Positions 6,601 to 21,059 of a DNA stretch of 64,000 bases are shown piece by piece. The stretch spans positions 279,134-343,133 of the forward strand of contig CBDCAB010000005.1 in NCBI GenBank assembly GCA_965213735.1. The letters are read 5' to 3'. The DNA is from Saprospiraceae bacterium (GTDB taxonomy: Bacteria; Bacteroidota; Bacteroidia; Chitinophagales; Saprospiraceae). The notes beneath the pieces are model-generated. The model made no database searches. It had not been told where the DNA came from and saw nothing but the letters and a program-made list of their open reading frames with translations. Position numbers and translations under genes: made by a program. Numbering within the stretch: position 1 is the stretch's first letter; the number at the start of each line of letters is the position of its first letter.

Positions 6601-6640
6601 AAGCCGCATCCTGAGTTTTGGGGTGCGGCTTTTTTGTTTG
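6601..6640 (+). terminator. Rho-independent terminator after the PD40 gene
   Basis: AAGCCGCATCC / GGGGTGCGGCTT stem (one G-T pair) with an 8-nt loop, followed by TTTTTGTTT. Confidence 0.8.
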
Positions 6641-6955
6641 GGGCTTCAGCGCAACTTGGGATAGCTGTGTCATTTTGAGGAGTGCTGAAAATATTGGGCG
6701 ATTTAATCCGGCCACAAACAAGATCTAAGCACGCAGGCCACGAGTCCCGGGTAAATCCTAGCCTCTGAGCGCTTAGACATAGATCCTCCCTTTTAGGATT
6801 GATTCCAGCTGCGTAGCTGCGTCGTTCAAAGGAGCCCTGGATTTATCCGGCGACTGTACGGACAAATGTGCTCAACTTGGCCGGAATCAGCTGCACCTGT
6901 GCCTCGCATTTGCCCAAAATACCCTATCTCGCAGCTATACATATGCCCCCTGATC

Positions 6956-8401
6956 ATGTTTGAGCAGACCTTCAAAAACATCGACGACCTGCTGTACAAG
7001 GACGCCGGTGCCGACTCCGAATTGGACTACATCGGCCAGACGAGCTGGGTACTCTTTCTACGCTACCTGCACGACCTGGAGGCTGAACTCGCTGATACGG
7101 CAGCACTCGAAGGGCGCGAGCACAGCTACATCCTCGATGAGGAGTACCGCTGGAACAGCTGGGCTATGCCGCAGCGCCCCGACGGCAGCTACGACAAGAA
7201 TGAGGCGCTGGCGGGTGACGATCTGATTGATTTTGTAAAGGAGGAGCTGTGGCCATATCTAGCCGACTTCAAGGACGAAACCAGCGATACACAGACCATT
7301 GAGTATAAAATCGGGGAGATCTTCTCGGAGCTGGAGTTCAAGATTAAAAGTGGATTCATCCTGCGCGAAATTTTGGAGTACGCAGATGAGCTGCCCTTCA
7401 AGTCGAGTAAAGAGAAGCACGAGTTGAGCCATCTCTACGAGACCAAGATTAAGAATATGGGCAATGCCGGTCGCAACGGCGGCCAGTACTACACGCCCCG
7501 CCCTTTGATTCGGGCTATGATCAAGGTGATTGACCCAAAGTTGGGCGAGCGCATCTACGATGGTGCGGCGGGTAGTTGTGGATTTCTCTGTGAGGCTTTC
7601 GAATACTTACAACCACAAGTGAAGTCGACCTCCGATCTGGAGACGCTACAAGAGCGGACGCTGTACGGTAAAGAGAAGAAAAACCTTGCCTACGTGATCG
7701 GGACGATGAACATGATCCTGCACGGCATTCGTGCCCCCAACCTACGGCGCGTCAATACGCTGAGTGAGGACGTGCGTCAGGTCCAGGAGAAAAATCGCTT
7801 CGACGTGATCCTTGCCAATCCGCCCTTCGGCGGGAAGGAGCGCAAGGAAGTGCAGCAAAACTTCGACATTAAGACCGGTGAGACGGCTTTTCTTTTTATG
7901 CAGCACTTCCTGAAGATGCTGCGGACGGGTGGAAGGGCTGCTGTGGTGATTAAAAATACATTCCTATCGAATTCCGATGCTAGTGCCTTAAGGAAGTTAC
8001 TGCTCGAAAGCACGCAACTGCACACCATTCTGGATATGCCCGGCGGCACTTTTCAGGGTGCGGGTGTGAAGACAGTGGTACTTTTCTTTGAAAAGGGCGA
8101 GCCTACCCGCAAGATTTGGTACTACCAGTTTGACCCGGGCAGAAACATGGGTAAGACCAATCCGCTCAACGATGAGGATTTGCAGGATTTCTTGCGGCTT
8201 GCGCCAAAACACGAGGACTCGGACAAGAGCTGGACAATTCACGTCAACGACGTCGATCAGGACACCTATGACCTTAGCACTAAGAATCCGAATGCACCAG
8301 AACCTGCGCCCCTTCGTGCACCCGCTGAAATTCTCGCTGAGATGGAGCAGCTAGACGAAGCGACACGGAAGTTATTGGGGGAGTTAAAGGAGTTGATATG
8401 A
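6956..8401 (+). CDS. hsdM: Type I restriction-modification system, DNA methyltransferase subunit
   Basis: Motifs GQYYTPRPLI, DGAAGSCGFL (AdoMet motif I) and NPPFGG (motif IV). The stop overlaps the hsdS start (ATGA at 8398-8401). The start is chosen at the internal Met (MFEQTFKNIDDLLY). Confidence 0.93.
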   Translation: MFEQTFKNIDDLLYKDAGADSELDYIGQTSWVLFLRYLHDLEAELADTAALEGREHSYILDEEYRWNSWAMPQRPDGSYDKNEALAGDDLIDFVKEELWPYLADFKDETSDTQTIEYKIGEIFSELEFKIKSGFILREILEYADELPFKSSKEKHELSHLYETKIKNMGNAGRNGGQYYTPRPLIRAMIKVIDPKLGERIYDGAAGSCGFLCEAFEYLQPQVKSTSDLETLQERTLYGKEKKNLAYVIGTMNMILHGIRAPNLRRVNTLSEDVRQVQEKNRFDVILANPPFGGKERKEVQQNFDIKTGETAFLFMQHFLKMLRTGGRAAVVIKNTFLSNSDASALRKLLLESTQLHTILDMPGGTFQGAGVKTVVLFFEKGEPTRKIWYYQFDPGRNMGKTNPLNDEDLQDFLRLAPKHEDSDKSWTIHVNDVDQDTYDLSTKNPNAPEPAPLRAPAEILAEMEQLDEATRKLLGELKELI

Positions 8402-9621
8402 GTCGGTGGGAGGTGAAAAAGCTTGGAGACCTGTGCAATATACAACTTGGCAAAACGCCTGCGAGGCGAAATCCAAAATTTTGGGATGCTAAACACCAAT
8501 CAGATAATGTTTGGATATCAATTGCTGACATGAGGCATGGTGAGGTGCTAAGCACGTCAAAAGAGAGACTTACGAGGCTTGGCGCTGCCGAATGTAAAGT
8601 CACTCCACGTGGCACATTACTTTTAAGTTTCAAACTAACTCTAGGGCGAGTAAGTTTTGCAGGACGTAACCTATATACAAATGAAGCAATTGCATCGCTG
8701 CTAAATTTGAAGGTTGATAAGAACTACTTATTTTATTACTTTAGTCATTTTGATTGGATGCGCGCGACCGAAGGCGACCATAAGATAAAAGGCAGGACAT
8801 TAAACAAAGCTAAGTTAAAAGATTTATCTATCCCAGTCCCGCCCCTCTCTGTCCAGCGCGAGATTGTGGATCGCTTGGATGCTGCTTTTGCGTTATTGGA
8901 TAAGGCGGAGGCGAATGTTCGGCGGTGTATTGAGTTGGCGGAGGAGTTGTGGGAGGGGGTGTTGGAGAGTTTATTTGATGCAAAAGATGAGAGGTGGATT
9001 GAGACTGATCTTTCATGCTTATTGAGAAAGAAATACATAATAGATCACATGGATGGAAATCATGGTGGGAACTATCCTCGTAAAAGCGAATTCGTCTTAT
9101 CGGGAGTACCATATTTAAGTGCCAAGAATATTAAAGATGGTCATGTTGATTTCTATGAGGCGAAGTTTCTTTCATATAAAAGAGCAGCTAAACTTAGAAA
9201 AGGATTTGCAAAGAATGGAGATGTGTTATTTGCTCATAATGCTACCGTAGGCCCCGTAGCTATTCTGAACACGGATTATGAAGTGTGTGTTCTTGGGACA
9301 TCGCTTACCTACTATCGCCCTAACCTAAGTTATGTACTGCCTGAATACCTTGCAGCCTACATGCGTAGTCCGCTATTTGTGAGACAATACAATCAAGTTA
9401 TGCGTCAATCAACCAGAAACCAAGTGCCCATCACAAAACAACGCACTTTTACTTTCCTCATCCCACCGCTGCAGGTCCAGAGGAATATGCTCACAGCTTT
9501 GGTGGCATTCTATCGACGTGTTCAAATCATTAAATCAAGCTATAAGGTTCAAGCTCAAAATATATCCGTACTACGAGCTTCAATCCTGGGGCGTGTTTTT
9601 AGTCAAGAACTAATACCCTAA
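8398..9621 (+). CDS. hsdS: Type I restriction-modification system, specificity subunit
   Basis: Two AT-rich variable halves are separated by conserved helical spacers: PPLSVQREIVDRLDAAFALLDKAE centrally and PPLQVQRNML...LRASILGRVF at the C-terminus. The gene is translationally coupled to hsdM. Confidence 0.9.
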   Translation: MSRWEVKKLGDLCNIQLGKTPARRNPKFWDAKHQSDNVWISIADMRHGEVLSTSKERLTRLGAAECKVTPRGTLLLSFKLTLGRVSFAGRNLYTNEAIASLLNLKVDKNYLFYYFSHFDWMRATEGDHKIKGRTLNKAKLKDLSIPVPPLSVQREIVDRLDAAFALLDKAEANVRRCIELAEELWEGVLESLFDAKDERWIETDLSCLLRKKYIIDHMDGNHGGNYPRKSEFVLSGVPYLSAKNIKDGHVDFYEAKFLSYKRAAKLRKGFAKNGDVLFAHNATVGPVAILNTDYEVCVLGTSLTYYRPNLSYVLPEYLAAYMRSPLFVRQYNQVMRQSTRNQVPITKQRTFTFLIPPLQVQRNMLTALVAFYRRVQIIKSSYKVQAQNISVLRASILGRVFSQELIP

Positions 9622-9633
9622 ATAATCATCTGG

Positions 9634-10548
9634 ATGCGAGAACGAGCACCGAACGTTACGATGAACTCAGTGGCGCTATATTATGACAATTCACTAATAT
9701 CAAATCCCGACAATTGGTTTAGTGAATTCAATTATTTTACGAATAGCGGAGCGTTTAATCTTTTCTGTATCAAGACACCCCATGAGCTTAAACTGCAAAT
9801 AGCTATAATACAAGAGCAAGCTTTGAAGGCAGATATAGGTGTCGCGTTAATATTTGAGTTCCATGGCTCGACGAAAGGTCTTCATATTGGAGATGAAATA
9901 CTTCATTGGGATGAGCTGGCGATAGTACTGTGTCAGCTTAATCTCGCCTGTAGGAATCAAGTTTATTCACTATTCGCGACCTGTTTTGCTTCTCAACTTG
10001 GCATTGAGTTTCAAGACCCCCCGAAAATGTTTATCGTAGGAGAAGTAAGGGCACCAATTAACTTCGCAGTATTCCCTGAAGAAGAATTTTATGAATGGGA
10101 AGTCGAAGAATTCGTGCATCCGTTCATCAAACGGTGGCTATCTGGCGACAAGTCTAATATGGACGATTTGTTTACGAAAATCTTTGCAACCAGGGGCGAC
10201 AGGAATGTTTGTTGGATAAATTGCTATGGTCAATGGGATACTCTGCGTCAAAAAACTTATAAAATGTTAAATCAGAAAGTGCTTGGTAATTGGGCTATAT
10301 TGAATCAACACTTGCGTAGTCAGAAAATTAACATTCAGAAAAGAATTGGCCGATGCCCTAGAGCTAAAGATTATAGAGAACATAAATCACAAATTTTGAA
10401 AATTGAGTACTATAAGTTGCTATTATCACAGATCTTCGACCAATTTTTTATGATCGATGTATATCCAGAAAATGCTACGAAATATATTCCTGATCAAGAT
10501 TATTCTGATATCGAATTTCTGATTCTACTGCATAATAATCAATCCTAA
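9634..10548 (+). CDS. Hypothetical protein with a candidate caspase/CHAT-like His...Cys dyad
   Basis: 304-aa AT-rich ORF starting 13 nt after hsdS on the same strand. The segment LIFEFHGSTKGLHIGDEILHWDELAIVL...VYSLFATCFAS fits the strand-HG ... strand-x-C-x-S pattern of the caspase-hemoglobinase fold. The start could instead be at 9661. Confidence 0.55.
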   Translation: MRERAPNVTMNSVALYYDNSLISNPDNWFSEFNYFTNSGAFNLFCIKTPHELKLQIAIIQEQALKADIGVALIFEFHGSTKGLHIGDEILHWDELAIVLCQLNLACRNQVYSLFATCFASQLGIEFQDPPKMFIVGEVRAPINFAVFPEEEFYEWEVEEFVHPFIKRWLSGDKSNMDDLFTKIFATRGDRNVCWINCYGQWDTLRQKTYKMLNQKVLGNWAILNQHLRSQKINIQKRIGRCPRAKDYREHKSQILKIEYYKLLLSQIFDQFFMIDVYPENATKYIPDQDYSDIEFLILLHNNQS

Positions 10549-10594
10549 CGTAAGCGATAGTCCTAATGTGTGAGATTTTTGAATTTTGTAAATC

Positions 10595-11500
10595 ATGAAC
10601 AGAGAATGGTTAGAGAAAGCTATCAGGGAACTCCCTCACTTTGCGGCGCTGAGTGAGGAAGATGCTAAAGAAAATTCTAGTGATTGGTTGAAGCTTATTG
10701 AGAGTTTTAAAGCTGTTACGGATCAATACCTTGATAACAGTCGTCAACAGATGCAGGATATCTTGATGAGGAACTCAGAATTTCCACTACTTTTTAGTTT
10801 ATCCATAAGTTATCATCATTATCTATTCACGTATTTTATAGAGAAGGCAGGAAGTGACAAAGATACTGAACGTCCAATGTTCTATGCCGGGTCTCTTATG
10901 GCCTTGGCGCTTGAGCATCATGTAAGTTTGTATAACTTAATGATCAGAGGACTTGAAAGCTCTGCTCGGATACTGTTCCGAGCCTTGATTGAAGTGTATG
11001 ATTTAGTACTATGTGTGAGTCAGGATGAGGAATTCATGCAAAATTACACTAAAATTCGAATGGACCACGAAGGGATTGATCATATAATTCCAATGAAGAC
11101 GGGTAGTATTGACCGAGCAGTAAATCGAATACTTCATCGAATTGATCTTGACCCCGATAAATTCTTTACCAAATTGAGGAAAAGTGTTTACAAAGATCTC
11201 TCAGACTTTGTACATGTGTCAGCCGACACGGTTGTGATGTCTGTAATGCAAAATCATATTGACAACGAATCGAGCTCTAGGCAGTTTCGTCCGGGAGGAC
11301 TGCATACCAAAACTACTAAAACCTTTTATCTAAGCGTATTGAATTATTCTTCGCACTTCGTATCGCTTGCGTGTAGTAATTTAGTCAAATCTAAATATCT
11401 TTATTTTGACGAGGATGATATCCAATTACGGGCAGCCAGAGAAGCGTTGAACTTAGGCATTGAACTGCAGCTTAAGTGGGTGGCTAGCTTAAAGCTGTAG
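10595..11500 (+). CDS. Hypothetical, predominantly alpha-helical protein
   Basis: 301-aa AT-rich ORF, co-directional with and 46 nt downstream of the previous gene. I recognise no catalytic motif. Confidence 0.55.
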   Translation: MNREWLEKAIRELPHFAALSEEDAKENSSDWLKLIESFKAVTDQYLDNSRQQMQDILMRNSEFPLLFSLSISYHHYLFTYFIEKAGSDKDTERPMFYAGSLMALALEHHVSLYNLMIRGLESSARILFRALIEVYDLVLCVSQDEEFMQNYTKIRMDHEGIDHIIPMKTGSIDRAVNRILHRIDLDPDKFFTKLRKSVYKDLSDFVHVSADTVVMSVMQNHIDNESSSRQFRPGGLHTKTTKTFYLSVLNYSSHFVSLACSNLVKSKYLYFDEDDIQLRAAREALNLGIELQLKWVASLKL

Positions 11501-11884
11501 TGCCTCGCGTGGGATTCCAGCCTTTACTAACTAGCGACCTCGACCACATAAACAGTCTCTGCTCCAACTCCCGTAGCGTCAACTCCCCCTTTTGCGCCAG
11601 CAGATATTGCCGGTACTCCTCGTAGCCGCACGCAGTCCAGGTGCCGAGGTAAAGGTTCGTGCCACCGAGCGCGCGTACGCTGTGTCGATCCATGACTGCA
11701 TGCACGTTAGGATTGACGAAAGCCATTATCGCGCTGGCCACTGAGATGCCCACTCCAGCCAGGGCAGTGAGCGTATGTACGGCCAGATAAGGCTCCTGTA
11801 GAGAGAGTGCTAAGGAAGGGATGTATTCTACTTCTGCTTCTGTATTGCGCTCCACCTTACTCTTTGTACGTGGTGACTTCCAGG
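11484..11884 (-). pseudogene. 5'-truncated duplicate of the HhH-GPD/OGG-fold gene at 12554-13072
   Basis: Positions 11538-11884 align without gaps to 12575-12921, with about 34 mismatches in 347 nt by manual count. Homology stops at the WKSPRTKSK codons and an in-frame TAA lies just upstream, so about 50 N-terminal residues are missing. Confidence 0.7.
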
Positions 11885-12110: not shown

Positions 12111-12497
12111 ATGGGACTCGATTTACTAGCTACATTCAGCGTAATCAAGAAGGAGTCCGTTGCGGACTCTGCAAGTATGATCCAACCGATGATGGTCCCC
12201 GACGAAATCATAGAGCTCGTCTATGCAAGCGTGCGTGACAAGGTATGGTTTACGAACAAGAGACTGATAGCGCTTGACGTACAAGGATTAACCGGCAAAA
12301 AGAAAGAATACCGTTCTTTTCCTTACAGTAAGATTTCCTCATTATCCGTTGAGACCTCTGGCACATTTGATTTTGACGGAGACTTTAAAATCTGGGTTAG
12401 CGGTGTTGGCGTCTTTGAAATCAAGTTTTCGAAGCGCCTTAACATCGCCGAGGTGGGAAATTATATGAGTTTAAAATTGCTTTCTCCTGAGGTATAA
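12111..12497 (+). CDS. Bacterial PH-domain (YokE-like bPH) protein
   Basis: 128 aa. The pattern VWFTNKRLIALD...EYRSFPYSKISSLSVETSGTFDFDGDFKIWVSG is typical of small bacterial pleckstrin-homology-like proteins. Confidence 0.7.
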   Translation: MGLDLLATFSVIKKESVADSASMIQPMMVPDEIIELVYASVRDKVWFTNKRLIALDVQGLTGKKKEYRSFPYSKISSLSVETSGTFDFDGDFKIWVSGVGVFEIKFSKRLNIAEVGNYMSLKLLSPEV

Positions 12498-12553: not shown

Positions 12554-13072
12554 TTACAACTTCCCCATCTCCCCCCTCGACCACATAAACAGTCCCTGCT
12601 CCAACTCCCGCAGCGTTAACTCACCCTTTTGCGCCAGCAGATATTGCCGGTACTGCTCGTAGCCGCGAGCAGTCCAGGTGCTGAGGCGCATATTCGTGCC
12701 ACCGAGGGCACGTACGCTGTGTCGATCCATGACTGCGTGCACGTCAGGATTGACGAAGGCCATGATCGCGCTGGCCACTGAGATGCCCACACCAGCAAGG
12801 GCAGTGAGCGTATGCACGGCCAGATATGGCTCTTGTAGAGAGAGTGCTAAGGAGGTAATGTGATCTACTTCTGCTTCTGTATTGCGCCCTGACTTACTCT
12901 TTGTACGCGGTGACTTCCAGGCGATGAGGGCGCGCAGGTCGTCTTTGGTGAGGTGGGTGACTTTGTGTAGGCGGTCGTTGAGAGCTAAATATTCAGCTTC
13001 GCTGCGGTAATCATACCTGGAGGCTAGCTCCTTCAATTCAGATAATCCGGTTGGGATTTGAAATAGCATCAT
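12554..13072 (-). CDS. HhH-GPD-like (8-oxoguanine glycosylase OGG-fold-like) protein
   Basis: 172 aa. The helix-hairpin-helix LTALAGVGISVASAIMAF is followed by VMDRHSVRAL, which parallels LPGVGRKTANVVL...AVDTHIFRV of endonuclease III-type glycosylases. Confidence 0.65.
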   Translation of the reverse strand: MMLFQIPTGLSELKELASRYDYRSEAEYLALNDRLHKVTHLTKDDLRALIAWKSPRTKSKSGRNTEAEVDHITSLALSLQEPYLAVHTLTALAGVGISVASAIMAFVNPDVHAVMDRHSVRALGGTNMRLSTWTARGYEQYRQYLLAQKGELTLRELEQGLFMWSRGEMGKL

Positions 13073-13590
13073 GATCGAGAGACTGGAGAATCAGCAGTAC
13101 TACCCTCTACATCCTCAAAGCTAAGCGCATTTAATAAGGGGCTGTAGTTGTTCTTAAACTCTTCAACTGATTTGAGCTCAGGGTGAAACCTTACCCAAGA
13201 AACATCATTGATCCAGGTGCTACAAAAGTTGCTTATCCAGACTGATGGTATGATGTATACGTCTGGTTGCATGGTAAGACCCGCTGCGCTTTGAAGATCA
13301 ACAAATGCAAAAAATAGATTTTCGGAGTTGACGGTTGCTGCTTTATGTCCTAAGGCAAATTCAAGATGGTGCGGAGCCTTAGCCTTGCCACGGCCTCGCG
13401 TACGCATAGCCCAATCAGCCGTCTTTACCTGAACAGAAAGCGACTTTGTACCGTCTGGATTTGAAGCAAGCAAATCAACAGTGGGTGAGCCACCTCGCGG
13501 TAAAGCGACGACAAGGCCGAGGCAACACATTTGATAGGCAACAAAGTGCTCGCCTGCTGCGCCGATTAAGTTTGCTGGTAATTTGGACAT
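13069..13590 (-). CDS. PD-(D/E)xK endonuclease-like protein (PDDEXK_5 / Hjc-like pattern)
   Basis: 173 aa. GAAGEHFVAYQMCCLGLVVALP....VDLLA.......LSVQVKT gives the E ... D ... Q-x-K arrangement. Its stop overlaps the start of the HhH gene by 4 nt. Confidence 0.65.
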   Translation of the reverse strand: MSKLPANLIGAAGEHFVAYQMCCLGLVVALPRGGSPTVDLLASNPDGTKSLSVQVKTADWAMRTRGRGKAKAPHHLEFALGHKAATVNSENLFFAFVDLQSAAGLTMQPDVYIIPSVWISNFCSTWINDVSWVRFHPELKSVEEFKNNYSPLLNALSFEDVEGSTADSPVSRS

Positions 13591-14142: not shown

Positions 14143-15270
14143 TTAGCTAATAGGTATGTTATCTGGTTTTAGCGGAACCTTTGCAAACAGCATCTCTTCT
14201 ATACTATCGTAGTGGTCTGGCTTAACGAAATTCGACGTAAGATCAGAAATCCTTCCAAGTTCGCGAGCACTTATCTGATAAACATTGCCCAAAATTAAGT
14301 CCTCAAGCTTTTTACAATGACCGTCCGACCATTCATTGTCGTTTCGTAAATTAGGATAGGAAGGAAAGAGAACGCAGTTTAATCCACGATCTTCACCAAA
14401 AGCTTGTACTGAAGAGTACTGGATTCCTACGAGTGGTGTGGCAGAGGTAGAGAAGGACATAATCTCTTTTTGCATGACTAGTTTCGCAATAGCATTAGGT
14501 ATGACATAGTACAGTTGATACCCGTAGGAGGCGTCACCCCTGTCTCCTGAATTAATGAACGTCGTATGGCAGAGAAGCCGTAAGGGTAGTGTGAGTAGCT
14601 CTCCAAGCCATATCAGTAGATCTTCCTTGCCGCTAATCTGGCGATCTAGGTCCCCATCTAACGATAAGTCCAGCAGTAACAGATCGCGGCGTGCTTTAAA
14701 TGCAGCTAAGTTACAGTAGTCAACATCGGCTTTGATCCTTTGCTTAGGTAAGAGGTATTTCACCTGGCCACATTCCTTTATAGCAGTAGCAATCGTTGTC
14801 GCCAGATAAAGTGAAGTAACTCCATCGGACGAGTAGCGGGTCTGACGAACTTTGTGTTGGAGTTGAATAGGTACGTGAAATATGGCCTTACGATCTTTGT
14901 CTTTGATAGATTTAACAGCCCCCATATCCCTTCGAATACGATAAAAGGGGCCATCTCCGCGCTTAATTTCTTGAACCAGACTGTTTCTACTCCCCGCTTT
15001 GCTCAGGGACTCAAACATGGATAGTAGCAGCATTTGAATCGCCGAGTCATTTGCAAGGCGTACGTACCCCAGTAGTTCGACGCACGCCTGTACCTGAGTG
15101 TTCAAGCTCGTCCGAATTTTGGACAATAGAACTATGTTGTCTTCATCCTCGTGTTTAGCAATTTCTTCTACCGCTGCACTCTGAAATCGCCTTACATGGC
15201 TCTCAAGCGAGCGAAAGTACTCCCGTCCAGGCTCAAAGGATAGAGGTTTGGCAAATTCAGAAAGCAGCAA
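14143..15270 (-). CDS. RES-domain protein with a long N-terminal helical extension
   Basis: 375 aa. RQTRYSSDGVTSLYLATTIATAIKE supplies the R and E motifs. GIQYSSVQAFGEDRGLNCVLFPS supplies the S motif. Both match the RES family pattern. Confidence 0.6.
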   Translation of the reverse strand: MLLSEFAKPLSFEPGREYFRSLESHVRRFQSAAVEEIAKHEDEDNIVLLSKIRTSLNTQVQACVELLGYVRLANDSAIQMLLLSMFESLSKAGSRNSLVQEIKRGDGPFYRIRRDMGAVKSIKDKDRKAIFHVPIQLQHKVRQTRYSSDGVTSLYLATTIATAIKECGQVKYLLPKQRIKADVDYCNLAAFKARRDLLLLDLSLDGDLDRQISGKEDLLIWLGELLTLPLRLLCHTTFINSGDRGDASYGYQLYYVIPNAIAKLVMQKEIMSFSTSATPLVGIQYSSVQAFGEDRGLNCVLFPSYPNLRNDNEWSDGHCKKLEDLILGNVYQISARELGRISDLTSNFVKPDHYDSIEEMLFAKVPLKPDNIPIS

Positions 15271-15299
15271 AGCAGAAAGGGATGTAGAAAATATACATG

Positions 15300-15962
15300 C
15301 TATGATTCGCCAGCAGGAGCTTGCTGTGCTTTAAGGTACAAGCAGAGCATTCTCCACCAGGCGGCATTGCTAAACACCATTAGGTCTGAGCTACTGAGTG
15401 AGTACGCGACTAGGTGCAAGTGCTCTTGCAGAATATTCATGGGGTACCCCTTATAGCTTACTTCGCTATTGAGTTCCTCTAAACTGACAAGTCGATTTAT
15501 CCACGGTTCGAGTATTAATTTCCAGCCTTCCCACCCATGCAAAAAACTTACAGCGACGTAGAATCCAAAGTGGGCGTTTAGTAATGATTCGAACGAGCGT
15601 TGCTGATCACTTAGTTCGCTTTCGACGTCGTAGCTAAAGATGTAAGCGTGGCTTACGGTGAGTTCAATACCGGAGAGAATCTTGAAAAGCTGCGTGTGCA
15701 CGCGACTAGATGATGTGCCATCACTATTTTCTGCTGGACTAACAAGTGGAGCAATCTGGCTGTCGCGCATTTCCCAATAGAAGTCATTCATCACCTGGCT
15801 TGCATTCACTAGGTAGGAGAGATTTGTGCCCGCCTCGTGTGTAGTTTGCAACAAACCGTTGCGCAATAACTGCGGTATATGGTCGGACACATAGCTATTG
15901 AGTACCGCTTCAAAGAATACCCTCCGATCTTCTCGAGTCTTTTGATCGTCTGCCGAAACCAT
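15300..15962 (-). CDS. Hypothetical protein, middle gene of the RES operon
   Basis: 220-aa ORF. It starts 3 nt after the upstream gene and ends 29 nt before the RES gene. No motif recognised. Confidence 0.5.
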   Translation of the reverse strand: MVSADDQKTREDRRVFFEAVLNSYVSDHIPQLLRNGLLQTTHEAGTNLSYLVNASQVMNDFYWEMRDSQIAPLVSPAENSDGTSSSRVHTQLFKILSGIELTVSHAYIFSYDVESELSDQQRSFESLLNAHFGFYVAVSFLHGWEGWKLILEPWINRLVSLEELNSEVSYKGYPMNILQEHLHLVAYSLSSSDLMVFSNAAWWRMLCLYLKAQQAPAGES

Positions 15963-15965
15963 TCC

Positions 15966-16298
15966 CTATGAGCGCTTCGCGCCTTTCGCTTTTGTCTCCA
16001 CGGCCCGTCTCAGCACGTTGCCTGGGTTCGCTTCCAACGAGACGCCTGTACGTAGGAGAACCCTATCGTTATCGAAATGAAGAGCCTCTTTACGAACGGT
16101 AATCTTAGCAGATTCTCGCTTCCATGCCTGACGTGTTTCAGCCTCCTCGTTTGGGTACGGCTTAGTAAGGTCAACCCGCTTATAGCTAGTTGGCGTCGGT
16201 CCTCTTGCAATGAGGCGCTCCTGCCATACGGCTGTAGTATTCTCCTTGAGTTCGTCCATGTCAGATCGTTTTCTACTGGTAGTAGAAAGCGGGCGCAA
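15966..16298 (-). CDS. Small hypothetical basic protein, first gene of the RES operon
   Basis: 110-aa ORF. An alternative start at 16259 (MDELKEN) gives 97 aa. It is tightly spaced with the next gene and rich in K/R/E. Confidence 0.4.
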   Translation of the reverse strand: MRPLSTTSRKRSDMDELKENTTAVWQERLIARGPTPTSYKRVDLTKPYPNEEAETRQAWKRESAKITVRKEALHFDNDRVLLRTGVSLEANPGNVLRRAVETKAKGAKRS

Positions 16299-16533: not shown

Positions 16534-18909
16534 TTGCGTATCTCCGTGAACGAATCCCAAACCCGCCAAGACCTAGTTACTCCAGCCCTCAGAGCAGCTG
16601 GATGGGAAACCGTGCCCGGCAGCAGAATTCGCACTGAATTTCCTGTCACTAACACGACAAAGCCTGGCGAACGCAACTACCGACAACTTTCTGCTGATTA
16701 CGTCCTCATTTATAAAAATAGGATGCTGGCCGTAGTCGAGGCAAAAGCGCGAGATACGTACTATACTAACGGGCTGGGCCAAGCCAAGGATTATGCCAAG
16801 CGTCTTCAGGTGCGCTACACCTATGCTACCAATGGTCGGCGCTTCTACGAAGTAGACATGGAGGAGGGCCAAGAAGGGGACGTTCAGTCTTTCCCCTCGC
16901 CCGATGAACTCTGGGAGCGGACGTATCCAAGTCCGACATCAGCGCAACCTTACAAGCAGGAGATCGTCGACTGGAAGACTCGGCTCTTCGAAGTTCCGTT
17001 TGAGAGCCAGGGGGGCAAGTGGCAGTTGCGCTATTATCAAACCAACGCAATCAACGCCGTGCTCGACCGCATTGCCGAGAAGCATCAGCGCGTGCTGCTT
17101 ACCCTAGCTACCGGCACCGGCAAAACCGCGATCGCCTTTCAAATTGTTTGGAAGCTTTACCAGGCAAAATGGACGCTGCGCCGCGATGCCAAACGCAGTC
17201 CACGGATTCTGTTTCTTGCCGACCGTAACATCCTTGCCGACCAAGCCTTCAACAGCTTCAGTAATGCCTTTGCCGAGGACGCCCTAGTGCGCATAAGCCC
17301 TGCTGAAATCAGTAAGAAAGGCCGCGTCCCCACTAACGGTGCCGTATTCTTTTCCATCTTCCAGACCTTCATGTCGGGGCCTGACGACAGTCCCTACTAC
17401 ACACATTATGAACCTGACTTTTTCGATTTCATTATTGTGGACGAGTGTCACCGGGGAGGCGCCAACGACGAGAGTACCTGGCGCGATATACTCGAGCATT
17501 TCAGTCCTGCGGTACAGCTAGGCCTCACCGCCACCCCCAAGCGCGACGAAAACGTCGACACCTACAAGTATTTCGGCGACCCGGTGTACACCTATGCGCT
17601 CAAGGAAGGCATCAACGACGGGTTTCTTACACCTTTCCGCGTACAGATGATCACTACGACGATGGATACCTACACGTTCTCTGCCGACGATGATGTCATT
17701 GAAGGGGATATTATCGAAGGTCGCGAGTACACCGAGTCAGAAATAAATCGCATTGTTTCCATTAAAGCTCGCGAAGAGTTTAGGGTACGTCGTTTTATGG
17801 AGCTTATAAACCAAAATCAAAAGACGCTCGTGTTCTGCGCCAACCAAGAACATGCTGCGGCCATTCGCGATCTCGTTAATCAACACAGCGATAGCCTCAA
17901 CCCCAACTACTGTTGTCGCGTCACCGCCGATGATGGCAGCAGAGGTGAGAAGCACCTGCGAGATTTTCAGGATAATGAGAAGCGAATCCCGACAATCCTT
18001 ACGACTTCGCAAAAATTAAGTACCGGAGTTGATGCTCCCGAGATCCGCAATATTGTGCTACTCCGTCCTATCAACAGTATGGTTGAGTTTAAACAAATAG
18101 TAGGTCGTGGCACTCGCCTGTATGATGGTAAGGATTACTTCACCCTATACGATTTCGTGAAAGCTCACGAGCATTTCAAAGATCCTGAATGGGATGGTGA
18201 TCCTGTCGAACCTGAACCGTCCTATCCAATTGAGCGACCGAAGGTTGGGGATGAAGGTCTCGTTAGGGATCCTGTACAAGCCTTGTGTACGGAGTGTCAG
18301 CATGAGCCCTGCCTGTGTGAGGAAGGTCCGCGTGTCATGACCCGCATTCGCCTCTCCACGCAACGTGAGCTGGCTATAGATTCTATGATTAACACTTCTT
18401 TCATGAGTGCGAGTGGTATACCGATTACTTCGAGCGAATTTATTCAGCAGCTATTTGGTGATCTACCTCAGTTTTTTAAAAGCGAGGAAGATCTGCGGCT
18501 GATTTGGAGTGATGCCAATACGCGCAAGCAGTTGCTGGAGCAGATGGCGGAAGTTGGCTACACTAACTCACAACTTGAAGAGCTACGTAAGTTGGTGCAT
18601 GGTACAGACAGCGACCTTTACGACGTGCTCAAGTACGTAGCCTACCAACGGGATATGGTTTCGCGTCGTCAGCGTGCGGCTTTCGCCAAAACCCGTTGTG
18701 CAGGTAAATACTCAACGGCGCAGAATGAGTTCTTAGACTTTATTCTGGATCAATACATTGAGGGTGGGGTAAGCGAATTAGACGGTGACAAGCTGTCAAA
18801 ACTTCTGAAACTAAAGTATAAAAGTATACCCGACGCAAAGAAGAGCTTGGGCCCAGTAGAACTGATCCGTGACACCTTCCTTGGCTTTCAGGGCGGGCTG
18901 TATGGATAA
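16534..18909 (+). CDS. hsdR: Type I restriction enzyme, R (endonuclease/translocase) subunit, EcoEI-like short form
   Basis: N-terminal NESQTRQDLVTPALRAAGW. SF2 motifs LATGTGKT, DECHRGG and QKLSTGVDAP. An EcoEI-R-type C-terminal tail is present (FLDFILDQYIEGG...). Confidence 0.93.
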   Translation: MRISVNESQTRQDLVTPALRAAGWETVPGSRIRTEFPVTNTTKPGERNYRQLSADYVLIYKNRMLAVVEAKARDTYYTNGLGQAKDYAKRLQVRYTYATNGRRFYEVDMEEGQEGDVQSFPSPDELWERTYPSPTSAQPYKQEIVDWKTRLFEVPFESQGGKWQLRYYQTNAINAVLDRIAEKHQRVLLTLATGTGKTAIAFQIVWKLYQAKWTLRRDAKRSPRILFLADRNILADQAFNSFSNAFAEDALVRISPAEISKKGRVPTNGAVFFSIFQTFMSGPDDSPYYTHYEPDFFDFIIVDECHRGGANDESTWRDILEHFSPAVQLGLTATPKRDENVDTYKYFGDPVYTYALKEGINDGFLTPFRVQMITTTMDTYTFSADDDVIEGDIIEGREYTESEINRIVSIKAREEFRVRRFMELINQNQKTLVFCANQEHAAAIRDLVNQHSDSLNPNYCCRVTADDGSRGEKHLRDFQDNEKRIPTILTTSQKLSTGVDAPEIRNIVLLRPINSMVEFKQIVGRGTRLYDGKDYFTLYDFVKAHEHFKDPEWDGDPVEPEPSYPIERPKVGDEGLVRDPVQALCTECQHEPCLCEEGPRVMTRIRLSTQRELAIDSMINTSFMSASGIPITSSEFIQQLFGDLPQFFKSEEDLRLIWSDANTRKQLLEQMAEVGYTNSQLEELRKLVHGTDSDLYDVLKYVAYQRDMVSRRQRAAFAKTRCAGKYSTAQNEFLDFILDQYIEGGVSELDGDKLSKLLKLKYKSIPDAKKSLGPVELIRDTFLGFQGGLYG

Positions 18910-19503: not shown

Positions 19504-20118
19504 CTAATTATTAATATACTTCTCGAACACCTCACTAAAGTCTTTACGGACATAGTTATCATATGCCTCGGTAAGCCAATCGTGGATGTAGGTGGTGAGC
19601 TTGGGTAAATCTTCGGCCTTGCTGGAGGCGCTGGTGCGGGCATTACCCAGGACGCTGACGGCTTGTGAGATACTTGTCTGAGCCCGCTCGTGTTTGGTCA
19701 TGTTGGAGCTGACCTCTAAAGAGATGGCGTAGAGGGCTTTGTACAGGTCTGCCAGTTGTGTAGACTGTCTTTTATCGACATCGACACTGAAAGCCATTTC
19801 TCCGATGCTGAACTTAATTTCGGCGTCCAAGTCTACTGTACCAGCCGTTTCAAGCGCTACATTACTTATGGGTGTTTTGTAAAATTCGTAGCGACGCAGG
19901 GTTCGTTTGCTAGAGATAGCGGACTCACCATCTACGTGAATCAGTGCTCGATTGGTAAAGCAGTATTCGTCCTTTTTACTTTTGATGAGAAAGTAAATTT
20001 TCTCTCCATCTTCATGGAGAACATAATCATCGGCCTCTACTTTATCGTAGTCCGCCGGTGAGACAATGCGCCCGATATCGGAGATGCCTAGGGCTTCGGC
20101 AGCGAGTTTCTTGAACAT
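19504..20118 (-). CDS. YvbH-like bacterial PH-domain protein with a helical C-terminal extension
   Basis: 204 aa. The pattern is YCFTNRALIHVDGESAISSKRTLRRYEFYKTPISNVALETAGTVDLDAEIKF followed by a helical tail. Confidence 0.7.
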   Translation of the reverse strand: MFKKLAAEALGISDIGRIVSPADYDKVEADDYVLHEDGEKIYFLIKSKKDEYCFTNRALIHVDGESAISSKRTLRRYEFYKTPISNVALETAGTVDLDAEIKFSIGEMAFSVDVDKRQSTQLADLYKALYAISLEVSSNMTKHERAQTSISQAVSVLGNARTSASSKAEDLPKLTTYIHDWLTEAYDNYVRKDFSEVFEKYINN

Positions 20119-20414: not shown

Positions 20415-21059
20415 ATGCCCATAGCAAGCTTGCTTACACCACCTTACCATATTGATCCGAAGCGTCATTATACGCTGGAGGAATGGCAGCTGCTCGAAGA
20501 GACGACGGGCGAGCAATTCGAGTATCATAAAGGTCGCTTGATCCCTGTACGGGCAATGGCCGGTGGTACTGGAGAACACGCCTTGATAGGGGCCAATGTG
20601 GTCTATTCGCTAGGCAAGATCACCCGCGAGTTGGATACAGTATCGAACGGTCAAGGTCAACTTGACTGTGGGGTATACAGCAGCGACTTACGTCTCATGC
20701 TCGAAACGGAGCAGCGCTACGTTTATCCTGATGCTGCGGTTATTTGTGGGCGACCTGTGTACGATATGAAGATCCCTACTGCCGCGCGCAACCCGCTGCT
20801 GGTGGTCGAGGTGCTTTCAAATAGGAGCGCCAGCTTTGATTCAGGCGATAAATTTGACTATTATGCTGCGCTCAATAGTCTGCGGGACTATATCCTGATA
20901 AGTCAGAATTCTCCCCGCATCGAAGTGCGTTCGCGTAGTGAACCTACCGGGACATGGACGATGACCATAACAGAAGGGCTTGACCAAGATGCTCACTTGC
21001 CAAGCCTGGGACAAGCCTTCACGCTAAAAGATGTGTATCGTTTGGTGGAGTGGAGATAA
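20415..21059 (+). CDS. Uma2 family (DUF820) endonuclease
   Basis: Motifs FEYHKGRLIP, YVYPDAAVICG, NPLLVVEVLS, DKFDYYAALNSLRDYILISQ. Confidence 0.85.
   Translation: MPIASLLTPPYHIDPKRHYTLEEWQLLEETTGEQFEYHKGRLIPVRAMAGGTGEHALIGANVVYSLGKITRELDTVSNGQGQLDCGVYSSDLRLMLETEQRYVYPDAAVICGRPVYDMKIPTAARNPLLVVEVLSNRSASFDSGDKFDYYAALNSLRDYILISQNSPRIEVRSRSEPTGTWTMTITEGLDQDAHLPSLGQAFTLKDVYRLVEWR

What the first reader, a model, noticed from the sequence alone, without database searches (positions are those of the whole stretch)
9634..11500. Two unknown genes co-directional with hsdS, one with a caspase/CHAT-like His...Cys pattern
The 304-aa ORF begins 13 nt after hsdS and is followed 46 nt later by a 301-aa helical ORF. 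The pair may be co-transcribed with hsdMS.

The first protein contains LIFEFHGSTKGLHIGDEILHWDELAIVL, then about 12 residues, then VYSLFATCFAS. This is a hydrophobic strand ending in H-G, followed 40 residues later by a hydrophobic strand ending in x-C-x-S. The spacing and context match the catalytic dyad of caspase-hemoglobinase fold proteases (CHAT, metacaspase).

Proteases of this fold act as effectors or activators in several prokaryotic immune systems. One wired to a type I R-M would be new. This rests on motif-level inference only.
Basis: inference. Interest (0 to 1): 0.65.

Follow-up and report, generated by a model that had tools for sequence, protein, structure and literature searches.

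The report
Caspase-fold protease gene riding behind hsdS
The gene right after the restriction-enzyme specificity gene encodes an undescribed, compact relative of caspase and legumain proteases with an invariant His/Cys pair; relatives repeatedly sit directly behind hsdS and in other anti-phage gene clusters, so it is probably a new proteolytic immune accessory, while the second gene is an unrelated, separately mobile passenger.

Summary
ORF-A (9634-10548, 304 aa) starts 12 nt after the hsdS stop. ORF-B (10595-11500, 301 aa, helical) follows 46 nt later. Both lie in a 7-kb variable island between hsdMS and hsdR.

ORF-A matches no Pfam, NCBIfam or PADLOC model. An exhaustive HMMER search found a family of about 255 representatives, each roughly 290 aa. 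H77, N103 and C117 are invariant in 140 aligned members that average 18% identity.

The AlphaFold model (pLDDT 92) hits only caspases, legumain and GPI transamidase. It shows a caspase-fold N-domain plus a C-terminal helical domain carrying the motif FFMIDLYPENxxRF.

Seven of the eight nearest family members sit directly behind an hsdS gene. In orthologous hsd loci (HsdM about 80% identical) this slot holds family alleles only 18-67% identical to ORF-A, which points to cassette replacement. More distant members lie beside AbiJ, type IIG R-M, a helicase, RelA/SpoT-like genes and other defence or mobile genes.

ORF-B is not a conserved partner. Its single homologue occupies the same slot without ORF-A.

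The protease and defence roles, and any coupling to HsdMS (as in PrrC or Ronin), are inferred, not shown.

The parts
6866..8401 (+). hsdM, the type I R-M methyltransferase subunit (511 aa)
   Evidence: Pfam N6_Mtase E 4e-59 and HsdM_N. PADLOC MTase_I E 4e-152. A strong terminator-like hairpin at 6601-6631 lies upstream.
8398..9621 (+). hsdS, the specificity subunit (407 aa, two target-recognition domains). The low-GC block starts here.
   Evidence: Pfam Methylase_S E 1e-28 with 2 stretches. PADLOC Specificity_I E 1e-38. GC falls from 0.52 to about 0.40 at roughly 8450.
9634..10548 (+). ORF-A, 304 aa: an undescribed clan-CD (caspase/legumain-fold) cysteine peptidase-like protein
   Evidence: No Pfam, NCBIfam or PADLOC hit. 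Family of 255 representatives. AlphaFold2 pLDDT 92.4. Foldseek top hits are all caspases or legumain.
9634..10221 (+). ORF-A N-terminal caspase-fold domain (about residues 1-196; strands at 12-17, 41-45, 70-75, 110-114, 144-148, 192-196)
   Evidence: DSSP of the model. Foldseek alignments of 206-264 columns to caspases and legumain.
9862..9867 (+). Codons for His77-Gly78, the predicted catalytic His, right after strand beta3
   Evidence: H is present in 140 of 140 and G in 139 of 140 members. In hhalign it aligns with SHG (H121) of caspase-3, a statistically weak alignment.
9940..9942 (+). Codon for Asn103, the third invariant residue, at the end of helix 92-105; role unknown
9982..9984 (+). 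Codon for Cys117, the predicted catalytic nucleophile, right after strand beta4
   Evidence: Present in 140 of 140 members. In hhalign it aligns with QACRG (C163) of caspase-3.
10222..10545 (+). ORF-A C-terminal helical domain (about residues 197-304) with the family signature FFMIDVYPENATKY (family consensus FFMIDLYPENxxRF)
   Evidence: Model secondary structure. Motif conservation.
10595..11500 (+). ORF-B, 301 aa: a helical protein that is a distant, sub-threshold relative of DUF5677. It is a separate cassette, not a conserved partner of ORF-A.
   Evidence: Pfam DUF5677 E 1.6e-3, 19 bits against a cut-off of 27.1. One homologue, P0005 (46% identity), lies directly after hsdS in L003 with no ORF-A. 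Poor model, pLDDT 50.
11484..11855 (-). Truncated duplicate of the 172-aa gene at 12554-13072; it marks the right edge of the low-GC hsdS/ORF-A/ORF-B block
   Evidence: 87% aa identity to residues 63-171 of the 172-aa protein. 300-nt direct repeat at 90% identity, 11538-11837 and 12575-12874. GC jumps to 0.55 at about 11450.
16534..18909 (+). hsdR, the restriction/translocase subunit (791 aa), separated from hsdMS by the 7-kb variable island
   Evidence: Pfam ResIII E 1e-38, EcoEI_R_C E 3e-26, HSDR_N, Helicase_C.

Best explanation
ORF-A belongs to an unnamed, horizontally mobile family of compact (about 290 aa) cytoplasmic cysteine peptidases. It has the caspase/legumain (clan CD) fold, with His77 and Cys117 as the catalytic dyad, plus a family-specific C-terminal helical domain.

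In this genome it sits in a variable cassette slot directly behind hsdS. It is probably transcribed with hsdM-hsdS.

I infer that it is a proteolytic immune accessory: a second-line or abortive-infection-type effector linked to the type I R-M system. The more specific version is that HsdM2S holds it in check, or that it monitors the complex, and that it is released when a phage disables restriction. That is the logic of PrrC/EcoprrI and Ronin.

ORF-B is an independent passenger of the same slot, a divergent DUF5677-like helical protein of unknown activity.

Shown here: the fold, the invariant dyad, the recurrent position behind hsdS and the defence-rich neighbourhoods. Inferred: protease activity, co-transcription, the defence role and any coupling to Hsd proteins.
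For: Fold and dyad:
- The AlphaFold2 model has pLDDT 92.4 and pTM 0.88.
- The best 50 listed Foldseek PDB hits are caspases, CED-3, legumain or PIGK, best E 1e-4, with TM normalised to target up to 0.57.
- BFVD hits include clostripain, caspase and metacaspase.
- H77, N103 and C117 are invariant in 140 members that are 12-25% identical to ORF-A.
- 22 of 140 members give weak Peptidase_C13 hits, best E 7e-6. In P0096 the hit covers profile positions 107-162 of 258, which is the His-to-Cys segment.
- hhalign places HG on caspase-3 SHG and the Cys on QACRG.

Linkage to hsdS:
- An hsdS gene lies 13 nt or less upstream, or overlaps, for ORF-A and for P0002, P0003, P0006, P0007, P0011 and P0012. That is 7 of the 8 nearest members.
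- L001, L003, L004 and L019 are the orthologous hsd locus: HsdM 77-82% and HsdR 74-86% identical wherever the contig holds them. L016 is assigned to it only from its hsdS and a 172-aa-family gene.
- The family alleles in that slot are only 18-67% identical to ORF-A. This argues for repeated replacement by members of the same family.

Operon structure:
- No convincing terminator lies between hsdM and the end of ORF-B, while a strong one precedes hsdM.
- hsdS, ORF-A and ORF-B form one low-GC block, 0.30-0.46 against about 0.52 in the flanks.

Wider family contexts:
- Co-directional upstream neighbours include AbiJ (L011, L038), a type IIG Eco57I/TaqI_C enzyme (L025), a DEAD+MZB helicase (L027), RelA_SpoT (L031), Hypoth_Ymh (L026) and GmrSD_N (L013).
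- Others include a restriction endonuclease on a Ralstonia plasmid (L023), and an Mrr/Schlafen/HipA/Piwi-fragment island (L012).

Precedent: effectors tethered to hsdMS that fire on anti-restriction proteins are PrrC and Ronin (10.1101/2023.04.06.535777). Embedded defence genes occur in type I R-M (PMC11411939; 10.1101/2024.01.29.577857).
Against: - There is no experimental evidence for proteolysis, toxicity or phage defence.
- Five of the seven hsdS-linked cases come from one orthologous locus in related organisms, so there may be as few as about three independent associations.
- Distant family members follow many different genes and some lie next to plain mobile-element genes (integrase, IS3, TniQ). 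This fits a free-standing gene parked in hot spots as well as a specific partnership.
- L003 keeps the R-M locus without any ORF-A homologue.
- No PADLOC model matches any of the 140 members.
- Foldseek E-values and TM scores are moderate (TM normalised to query 0.33-0.41), partly because of the extra C-terminal domain.
- The hhalign match to caspase-3 is statistically weak (probability 3%).
- The promoter and terminator scan is not calibrated for this probably Bacteroidota-type genome.
Confidence: 0.6

Rival explanations
1. ORF-A is a free-standing single-gene defence or toxin cassette. It merely lands in the hsdS-hsdR interval because that interval is a recombination hot spot. It neither binds nor senses the R-M enzyme.
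For: - The same interval carries other self-contained modules: a RES-domain operon here, and DarT-Macro in L003, L004 and L016.
- A repeat-flanked bPH gene also sits there.
- Distant family members follow unrelated genes such as AbiJ, type IIG R-M, RelA_SpoT and an HTH regulator.
- No conserved partner gene was found.
- Gene GC is lower than locus GC in 14 of 15 loci.
Against: - Several deeply divergent alleles (18-34% identical apart from the ORF-A/P0002/P0003 trio) all occupy exactly the position 0-13 nt after hsdS, some with overlapping stop and start codons.
- This holds even where the flanking hsd genes are about 80% identical. A plain hot spot would be expected to scatter them.
Confidence: 0.3
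2. ORF-A is a regulatory protease of the R-M system itself. It might limit HsdR activity (restriction alleviation) when a new hsdS specificity arrives together with it on the same cassette, protecting the unmodified chromosome.
For: - hsdS, ORF-A and ORF-B form one compositionally distinct block that appears to move together.
- hsdS alleles differ strongly between orthologous loci, 28-39% identity.
- Proteolytic control of HsdR by ClpXP is established for EcoKI (my own knowledge; not tested here).
Against: - Many family members occur without any type I R-M nearby.
- L003 has a different hsdS but no ORF-A.
- There is no evidence of interaction with HsdR.
Confidence: 0.07
3. ORF-A uses the caspase fold for something other than hydrolytic proteolysis of host or phage proteins, for example transpeptidation or ligation as in the GPI transamidase. 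Alternatively it is a selfish or anti-defence factor of mobile elements.
For: - PIGK, a transamidase, is among the structural hits.
- Family members occur on Klebsiella about-110-kb IncFIB plasmids and other plasmids.
- There is a weak PHROG hit, phrog_38219, E 7e-4.
- Two uncharacterised viral proteins top the BFVD list.
Against: - No member was found in 50,697 phage genomes by tblastn.
- No confirmed member was found in IMG/VR using the family motif.
- The invariant His-Gly...Cys dyad is the hydrolytic dyad of all clan-CD peptidases.
Confidence: 0.08

Closest known systems
PrrC anticodon nuclease embedded in the EcoprrI type I R-M locus
   Same: Both are accessory effector genes embedded in an hsd gene cluster. 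PrrC provides the model of a latent suicide effector held by the R-M enzyme and released when a phage peptide (Stp) blocks restriction (as summarised in 10.1101/2023.04.06.535777 and 10.1101/2024.01.29.577857).
   Different: PrrC is an ABC-ATPase-like tRNA nuclease. ORF-A has a caspase fold and matches no PADLOC model. Coupling to HsdMS is untested for ORF-A.
Ronin (RonA with HsdMS), decoy immunity in E. coli
   Same: In both, the effector gene is tightly linked to hsdS/hsdM. In Ronin the effector is toxic alone, is suppressed by HsdMS and is triggered by Ocr, ArdA or Aop1 (10.1101/2023.04.06.535777).
   Different: RonA is a 61-aa membrane peptide and Ronin usually lacks hsdR. Here hsdR is present and looks intact, and the candidate effector is a 304-aa soluble cysteine peptidase-like protein.
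Defence genes embedded in type I R-M, BREX or DISARM operons (TgvAB in Vibrio cholerae VPI-2; 'guilt-by-embedding' candidates of Payne et al. 2024)
   Same: The genomic logic is the same: unrelated defence genes are inserted between hsd genes (PMC11411939; 10.1101/2024.01.29.577857).
   Different: TgvAB is a GmrSD-like type IV restriction system. No caspase-like family is mentioned in the Payne et al. text or in its held supplements.
Caspase-like proteases of prokaryotic immunity (TPR-CHAT/Csx29 of type III-E CRISPR; gasdermin-activating and TIR-activated caspase-like proteases)
   Same: ORF-A shares the clan-CD fold with a His/Cys dyad and is encoded in defence loci. This rests on the fold result here and, for the named systems, on 10.1101/2022.09.03.506347 and my own knowledge.
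   Different: Those proteins are larger and carry sensor or adaptor domains (TPR, SAVED, NACHT and others). They belong to the CHAT or C14 sequence families. ORF-A is about 300 aa, matches neither family and instead has a unique helical C-domain with the FFMIDLYPEN motif.
Legumain / Peptidase C13 and caspases (C14)
   Same: Topology is shared, with His-Gly after beta3 and Cys after beta4. The His-Cys spacing is 40 residues, against 42 in caspase-3 and 41 in legumain (my own knowledge). Weak C13 profile hits occur in 22 of 140 relatives.
   Different: ORF-A itself has no C13 or C14 hit at E <= 0.1. It has no signal peptide or prodomain. It has an extra invariant Asn103 and an added C-terminal domain.

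Membership tests
Clan CD cysteine peptidases (caspase-hemoglobinase fold) | Alpha/beta sandwich with a central six-stranded sheet like caspases or legumain | tested here: met
   High-confidence model (pLDDT 92.4) with six strands alternating with helices. The listed top Foldseek PDB hits are all clan-CD enzymes. BFVD hits are clostripain, caspase and metacaspase.
Clan CD cysteine peptidases (caspase-hemoglobinase fold) | Catalytic His (usually His-Gly) at the end of strand 3 and catalytic Cys at the end of strand 4, both conserved | tested here: met
   H77-G78 follows strand 70-75 and C117 follows strand 110-114. H and C are present in 140 of 140 members and G in 139 of 140.
Clan CD cysteine peptidases (caspase-hemoglobinase fold) | The dyad aligns residue for residue with the dyad of a characterised member | tested here: inconclusive
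A C13 hit in relative P0096 spans the His-to-Cys segment. No structural superposition output was available.
Clan CD cysteine peptidases (caspase-hemoglobinase fold) | Peptide-bond hydrolysis dependent on the Cys | not testable with these tools
   Needs enzyme assays with wild type and C117A.
Pfam CHAT (PF12770) and Peptidase_C14 (caspase/metacaspase) | Match to the family profile | tested here: not met
   No hit for ORF-A at E <= 0.1. None of 140 relatives hits CHAT or C14 at E <= 0.01.
Pfam Peptidase_C13 (legumain) | Match to the family profile at or above the gathering score | tested here: not met
   ORF-A has no hit. 22 of 140 relatives hit weakly, best E 7e-6. P0096 scores 15.1 bits against a cut-off of 22.8.
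R-M-guarding abortive-infection effectors (PrrC / Ronin type) | Effector gene embedded in or tightly linked to hsdM/hsdS | tested here: met
   There is a 12-nt gap after hsdS here. 7 of the 8 nearest relatives lie directly behind hsdS.
R-M-guarding abortive-infection effectors (PrrC / Ronin type) | Effector is toxic, is neutralised by HsdMS and is triggered by anti-restriction proteins | not testable with these tools
   Requires expression and co-expression experiments.
R-M-guarding abortive-infection effectors (PrrC / Ronin type) | Homology to PrrC or RonA | tested here: not met
   No PADLOC or Pfam hit. ORF-A is a 304-aa caspase-fold protein, not an ABC-type nuclease or a 61-aa membrane peptide.
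Pfam DUF5677 (for ORF-B) | Match at or above the gathering score | tested here: not met
   19 bits, E 1.6e-3, against a cut-off of 27.1, covering profile positions 3-59 of 166 only. Homologue P0005 carries a precomputed 'faint' DUF5677 hit.
Type I restriction-modification system (the host locus) | hsdM, hsdS and hsdR all present and apparently intact | tested here: met

The most novel reading that the evidence does not exclude
The family is a proteolytic guard. It would dock on HsdM2S, and in other lineages on other DNA-targeting defence enzymes, as an inactive caspase-like zymogen. When a phage anti-restriction protein (Ocr, ArdA or Stp type) disables the enzyme, it would be unleashed and cleave host or phage proteins to abort infection. 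In short, it would be a caspase-type back-up to restriction, diversifying by cassette swapping together with hsdS.
Probability: 0.22. Interest if true: 0.8.

Novelty: new variant of a known kind. Interest (0 to 1): 0.62.

Why it matters
Caspase-like proteases are emerging as executioners in bacterial immunity, but the known ones are large proteins fused to sensor domains. This is a minimal, about-300-aa caspase-fold family with no database model and only 'hypothetical protein' labels. It is spread across Bacteroidota, Desulfobacterota, Pseudomonadota and Acidobacteriota.

One subgroup has been repeatedly swapped into the position directly behind hsdS. If it is an R-M-linked effector, it would add a proteolytic arm to the PrrC/Ronin concept of anti-anti-restriction.

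It would also supply a small, tractable protease whose trigger and substrates can be mapped with simple genetics: H77A and C117A mutants, with and without HsdMS and with and without Ocr or ArdA.

Tried and rejected
Searches that found nothing useful:
- Direct Pfam, NCBIfam and PADLOC scans of ORF-A gave no hits. PHROGs gave one weak hit.
- A PDB sequence search with the 3-sequence and the 140-sequence profiles returned only noise.
- tblastn of ORF-A and ORF-B against plasmids, and of ORF-A against phages, gave no match.
- A central family member also gave no phage match.
- The IMG/VR scans found no confirmed relative of either gene.
- Cluster look-up gave no informative names.

ORF-B as a partner of ORF-A was rejected:
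- The gene downstream of the 68%-identical homologue is unrelated.
- An all-against-all comparison of downstream genes found no conserved partner.
- ORF-B's only homologue occurs without ORF-A.

ORF-B's structure could not be resolved. The model has pLDDT 50, and its Foldseek hits are generic helical bundles with E > 0.7, so they were disregarded.

An Argonaute link was considered and rejected. In L012 the upstream Piwi ORF is only a 258-aa C-terminal fragment with no MID region in any frame.

The observation that the gene often lies a short distance after a co-directional gene (27 of 36 loci) is not treated as evidence. Co-directional neighbours are common, and my ORF calls are crude.

Full report
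**1. What is there**

The window carries a type I restriction-modification locus that is split by an island. All hsd genes are on the + strand.
- hsdM spans 6866-8401.
- hsdS spans 8398-9621 and overlaps hsdM by 4 nt.
- About 7 kb of unrelated genes follow.
- hsdR spans 16534-18909 (ResIII, Helicase_C, EcoEI_R_C).

The two genes of the finding are the first two genes of that island.
- ORF-A spans 9634-10548 (304 aa). Twelve nucleotides separate the hsdS stop from its ATG.
- ORF-B spans 10595-11500 (301 aa), 46 nt further on.

His77 and Cys117 are 40 residues apart.

A strong hairpin-plus-T terminator lies before hsdM at 6601-6631. Nothing comparable lies between hsdM and the end of ORF-B. That scan is not tuned to this genome, which is probably Bacteroidota given the neighbouring PorE-like gene.

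GC drops from about 0.52 to 0.30-0.46 at the start of hsdS. It stays low to about 11450 and then jumps to 0.55. So hsdS, ORF-A and ORF-B form one compositionally foreign block.

**2. ORF-A is a caspase-fold protein with an invariant His/Cys dyad**

ORF-A matches no Pfam, NCBIfam or PADLOC model. It has only a weak PHROG hit over residues 68-123. The word-indexed search of 5.8 billion proteins found just two close homologues, at 68% and 43% identity.

A profile of these three sequences was searched exhaustively against 1.84 billion cluster representatives.
- It found 255 proteins at E <= 1e-3 and 27 at E <= 1e-10.
- Nearly all are 260-315 aa long.

In an alignment of 140 of them (12-25% identical to ORF-A, mean column identity 18%):
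- H77, N103 and C117 are invariant.
- G78, P70, G82, W92, L110 and P141 are at least 90% conserved.
- A C-terminal signature, FFMIDLYPENxxRF, is widespread.

With that alignment AlphaFold2 gives a confident model (pLDDT 92.4, pTM 0.88).
- Strands lie at 12-17, 41-45, 70-75, 110-114, 144-148 and 192-196, alternating with helices.
- His77-Gly78 directly follows the third main strand and Cys117 directly follows the fourth. This is the arrangement of caspases.
- Residues 197-304 form an extra helical domain.

Foldseek results agree.
- Against the PDB, the best 50 listed hits are caspase-11, -6, -7, -9, -3, -4, CED-3, legumain and the GPI-transamidase catalytic subunit. The best E is 1e-4 and TM normalised to target reaches 0.57.
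- Against viral models, clostripain, caspase and metacaspase appear.

Sequence-level links are weak but consistent.
- 22 of 140 relatives hit Pfam Peptidase_C13 (best E 7e-6).
- In P0096 that hit spans exactly the His-to-Cys segment.
- No member hits CHAT or Peptidase_C14.

I conclude that ORF-A is a new sequence family within the clan-CD fold. It is not a CHAT or metacaspase member.

**3. Where the family lives**

The eight members nearest to ORF-A share an N-terminal motif that the rest of the family lacks. Seven of them have an hsdS gene immediately upstream:

| Locus | Spacing to hsdS |
|---|---|
| Window | 12-nt gap |
| L001 | 12-nt gap |
| L002 | 10-nt gap |
| L004 | 4-nt overlap |
| L016/L017 | 1-nt overlap |
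| L019/L020 | 9-nt gap |
| L021 | 4-nt overlap |

L018 is the exception.

L001, L003, L004 and L019 are the orthologous hsd locus of related organisms. HsdM is 77-82% and HsdR 74-86% identical to the window's proteins wherever the contig holds them, and a conserved 172-aa gene is present in L003, L004 and L019. L016 holds only hsdS and a 47%-identical 172-aa-family gene, so I assign it to that locus tentatively.

The protein in the post-hsdS slot varies far more. It is 67%, 18%, 19% or 18% identical to ORF-A. In L003 it is not an ORF-A relative at all but the only homologue of ORF-B.

Vertical descent cannot produce 20% identity next to 80%-identical flanks. The slot is therefore being refilled by cassette exchange, and it is refilled preferentially with members of this one family.

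That is the strongest argument for a functional tie to the R-M enzyme. The caveat is that the seven cases may reduce to about three independent lineages: the orthologous locus, L002 and L021.

More distant members were found with the motif [FY]FMIDLYP in GTDB genomes, JGI metagenomes and plasmids. They sit in defence or mobile contexts.
- After MmeI-like, helicase and AbiJ genes in Stenotrophomonas, and after AbiJ alone in metagenome locus L038, there with a 4-nt overlap with AbiJ.
- After a type IIG Eco57I/TaqI_C enzyme, a 1715-aa DEAD+MZB helicase, a RelA_SpoT-like protein and a Hypoth_Ymh protein.
- After a GmrSD_N fragment and an XRE-type HTH.
- After a restriction endonuclease in an integrase-bounded segment of a Ralstonia plasmid.
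- Overlapping a reverse-transcriptase ORF on Rhizobium plasmids.
- On Klebsiella about-110-kb IncFIB plasmids.
- In a Bergeyella island with HipA, a Piwi fragment, Mrr and Schlafen genes.

Gene GC is below locus GC in 14 of 15 loci, for example 0.354 against 0.648 in L015.

None of the 140 members matches a PADLOC model. Sources call them 'hypothetical protein'. No member was found in 50,697 phage genomes or, with the motif, in IMG/VR.

**4. ORF-B**

ORF-B has one homologue (46% identity). It lies 20 nt after hsdS in L003.

It gives a sub-threshold DUF5677 hit (19 bits, cut-off 27.1) and a weak PDC-S52 hit. Its model is poor (pLDDT 50), and the structure matches are meaningless.

The gene after the 68%-identical ORF-A homologue is unrelated to ORF-B. 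No conserved downstream partner exists among the loci.

So the 'pair' is two independent cassettes stacked in one slot.

A DUF5677 gene tested in Enterococcus faecalis was not among the candidates reported as protective (PMC12632615). That says little about this distant relative.

**5. How it most likely works**

Shown here:
- a caspase-type fold with an invariant His-Gly...Cys dyad and an invariant Asn;
- a family-specific helical C-domain;
- mobility;
- a recurrent position directly behind hsdS;
- defence-rich neighbourhoods.

Inferred:
- ORF-A is an active cysteine endopeptidase.
- It is made from the hsdMS transcript.
- It acts as a proteolytic immune accessory.

The most specific model follows PrrC/EcoprrI and Ronin. 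In those systems an effector linked to HsdMS is silent until a phage anti-restriction protein hits the complex (10.1101/2023.04.06.535777). I give that guard model roughly 0.2-0.3.

I give a similar weight to the simpler model of a free-standing effector parked in an hsd hot spot. That interval also holds RES or DarTG modules. Embedded but independent systems such as TgvAB are known (PMC11411939; 10.1101/2024.01.29.577857).

Minor rivals are a protease that regulates HsdR during specificity change, and a non-hydrolytic or mobile-element-selfish role.

**6. Novelty and verdict**

The kinds are known: caspase-like proteases in prokaryotic immunity, and accessory genes embedded in type I R-M loci.

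The family, its minimal architecture and its repeated capture behind hsdS appear undescribed in the libraries and papers I could search. I file it as a new variant of a known kind, of moderate-to-high interest. It rests on solid fold and conservation evidence, but there are no functional data.

- It is not a CHAT or metacaspase member by sequence.
- ORF-B is not its partner.
- The wiring to the R-M enzyme is still a hypothesis.

Noticed in passing
window 11538-11837 and 12575-12874 (- strand genes 11484-11855 and 12554-13072): A 300-nt direct repeat at 90% identity. The small ORF at 11484-11855 is a truncated copy of the 172-aa gene. The two copies flank a + strand bacterial-PH-domain gene (12111-12497). 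L003 and L019 show the same layout, a partial plus a full copy flanking a different + strand cargo gene of 288 aa. This suggests repeat-mediated cassette exchange.
   Followed up: partly
window 14143-16298 (- strand); L003 14764-16468; L004 5289-6913; L016 3896-5638: Just upstream of hsdR and divergent from it, the window has a three-gene operon ending in a 375-aa RES-domain protein. Orthologous loci L003 and L004 carry DarT plus Macro (DarTG) at the same position. L016 has a Macro gene and a cut-off neighbouring gene there. Two different NAD-using toxin modules thus alternate in one slot.
   Followed up: partly
window 12554-13072 (-), 13069-13590 (-); L012 4871-5389: The conserved 172-aa protein of this hsd island gives weak hits to an OGG-like DNA-glycosylase family (E 0.002-0.005). 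A distant homologue (26% identity, E 6e-10) lies directly downstream of the caspase-like gene in an unrelated Bergeyella defence island.
   Followed up: partly
L012 3144-3920 and 3932-4783: A Piwi-domain ORF lies 11 nt upstream of a caspase-like family member. It is only a 258-aa C-terminal fragment with no MID region in any frame, so it is probably a truncated pAgo. HipA, Mrr and Schlafen genes lie nearby.
   Followed up: yes
L022 5974-6861 (NZ_CP132962.1 and similar Klebsiella pneumoniae ~110-kb IncFIB plasmids): The family member on these plasmids is annotated by RefSeq as 'HMG-box domain-containing protein'. Given the caspase-fold family assignment, that label looks wrong.
   Followed up: no
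L024 4407-5901 (Rhizobium sp. CCGE532 plasmid): A family member overlaps the 3' end of a 'reverse transcriptase domain-containing protein' ORF. This may be a frameshifted RT-caspase-like fusion or a defence-RT operon.
   Followed up: no
window 19504-20118 (-) and 20415-21059 (+): Just beyond hsdR lie a second bacterial PH-domain gene, with a YvbH-like oligomerisation region, and a Uma2-family putative endonuclease. The variable or defence-like region may therefore extend past hsdR.
   Followed up: no
P0096 / L030 1511-3067: One family member is 491 aa, with a roughly 250-aa N-terminal extension that has no Pfam match. The neighbouring ORF looks like a multi-pass membrane protein. This could be a fused sensor or anchor variant of the family.
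   Followed up: no
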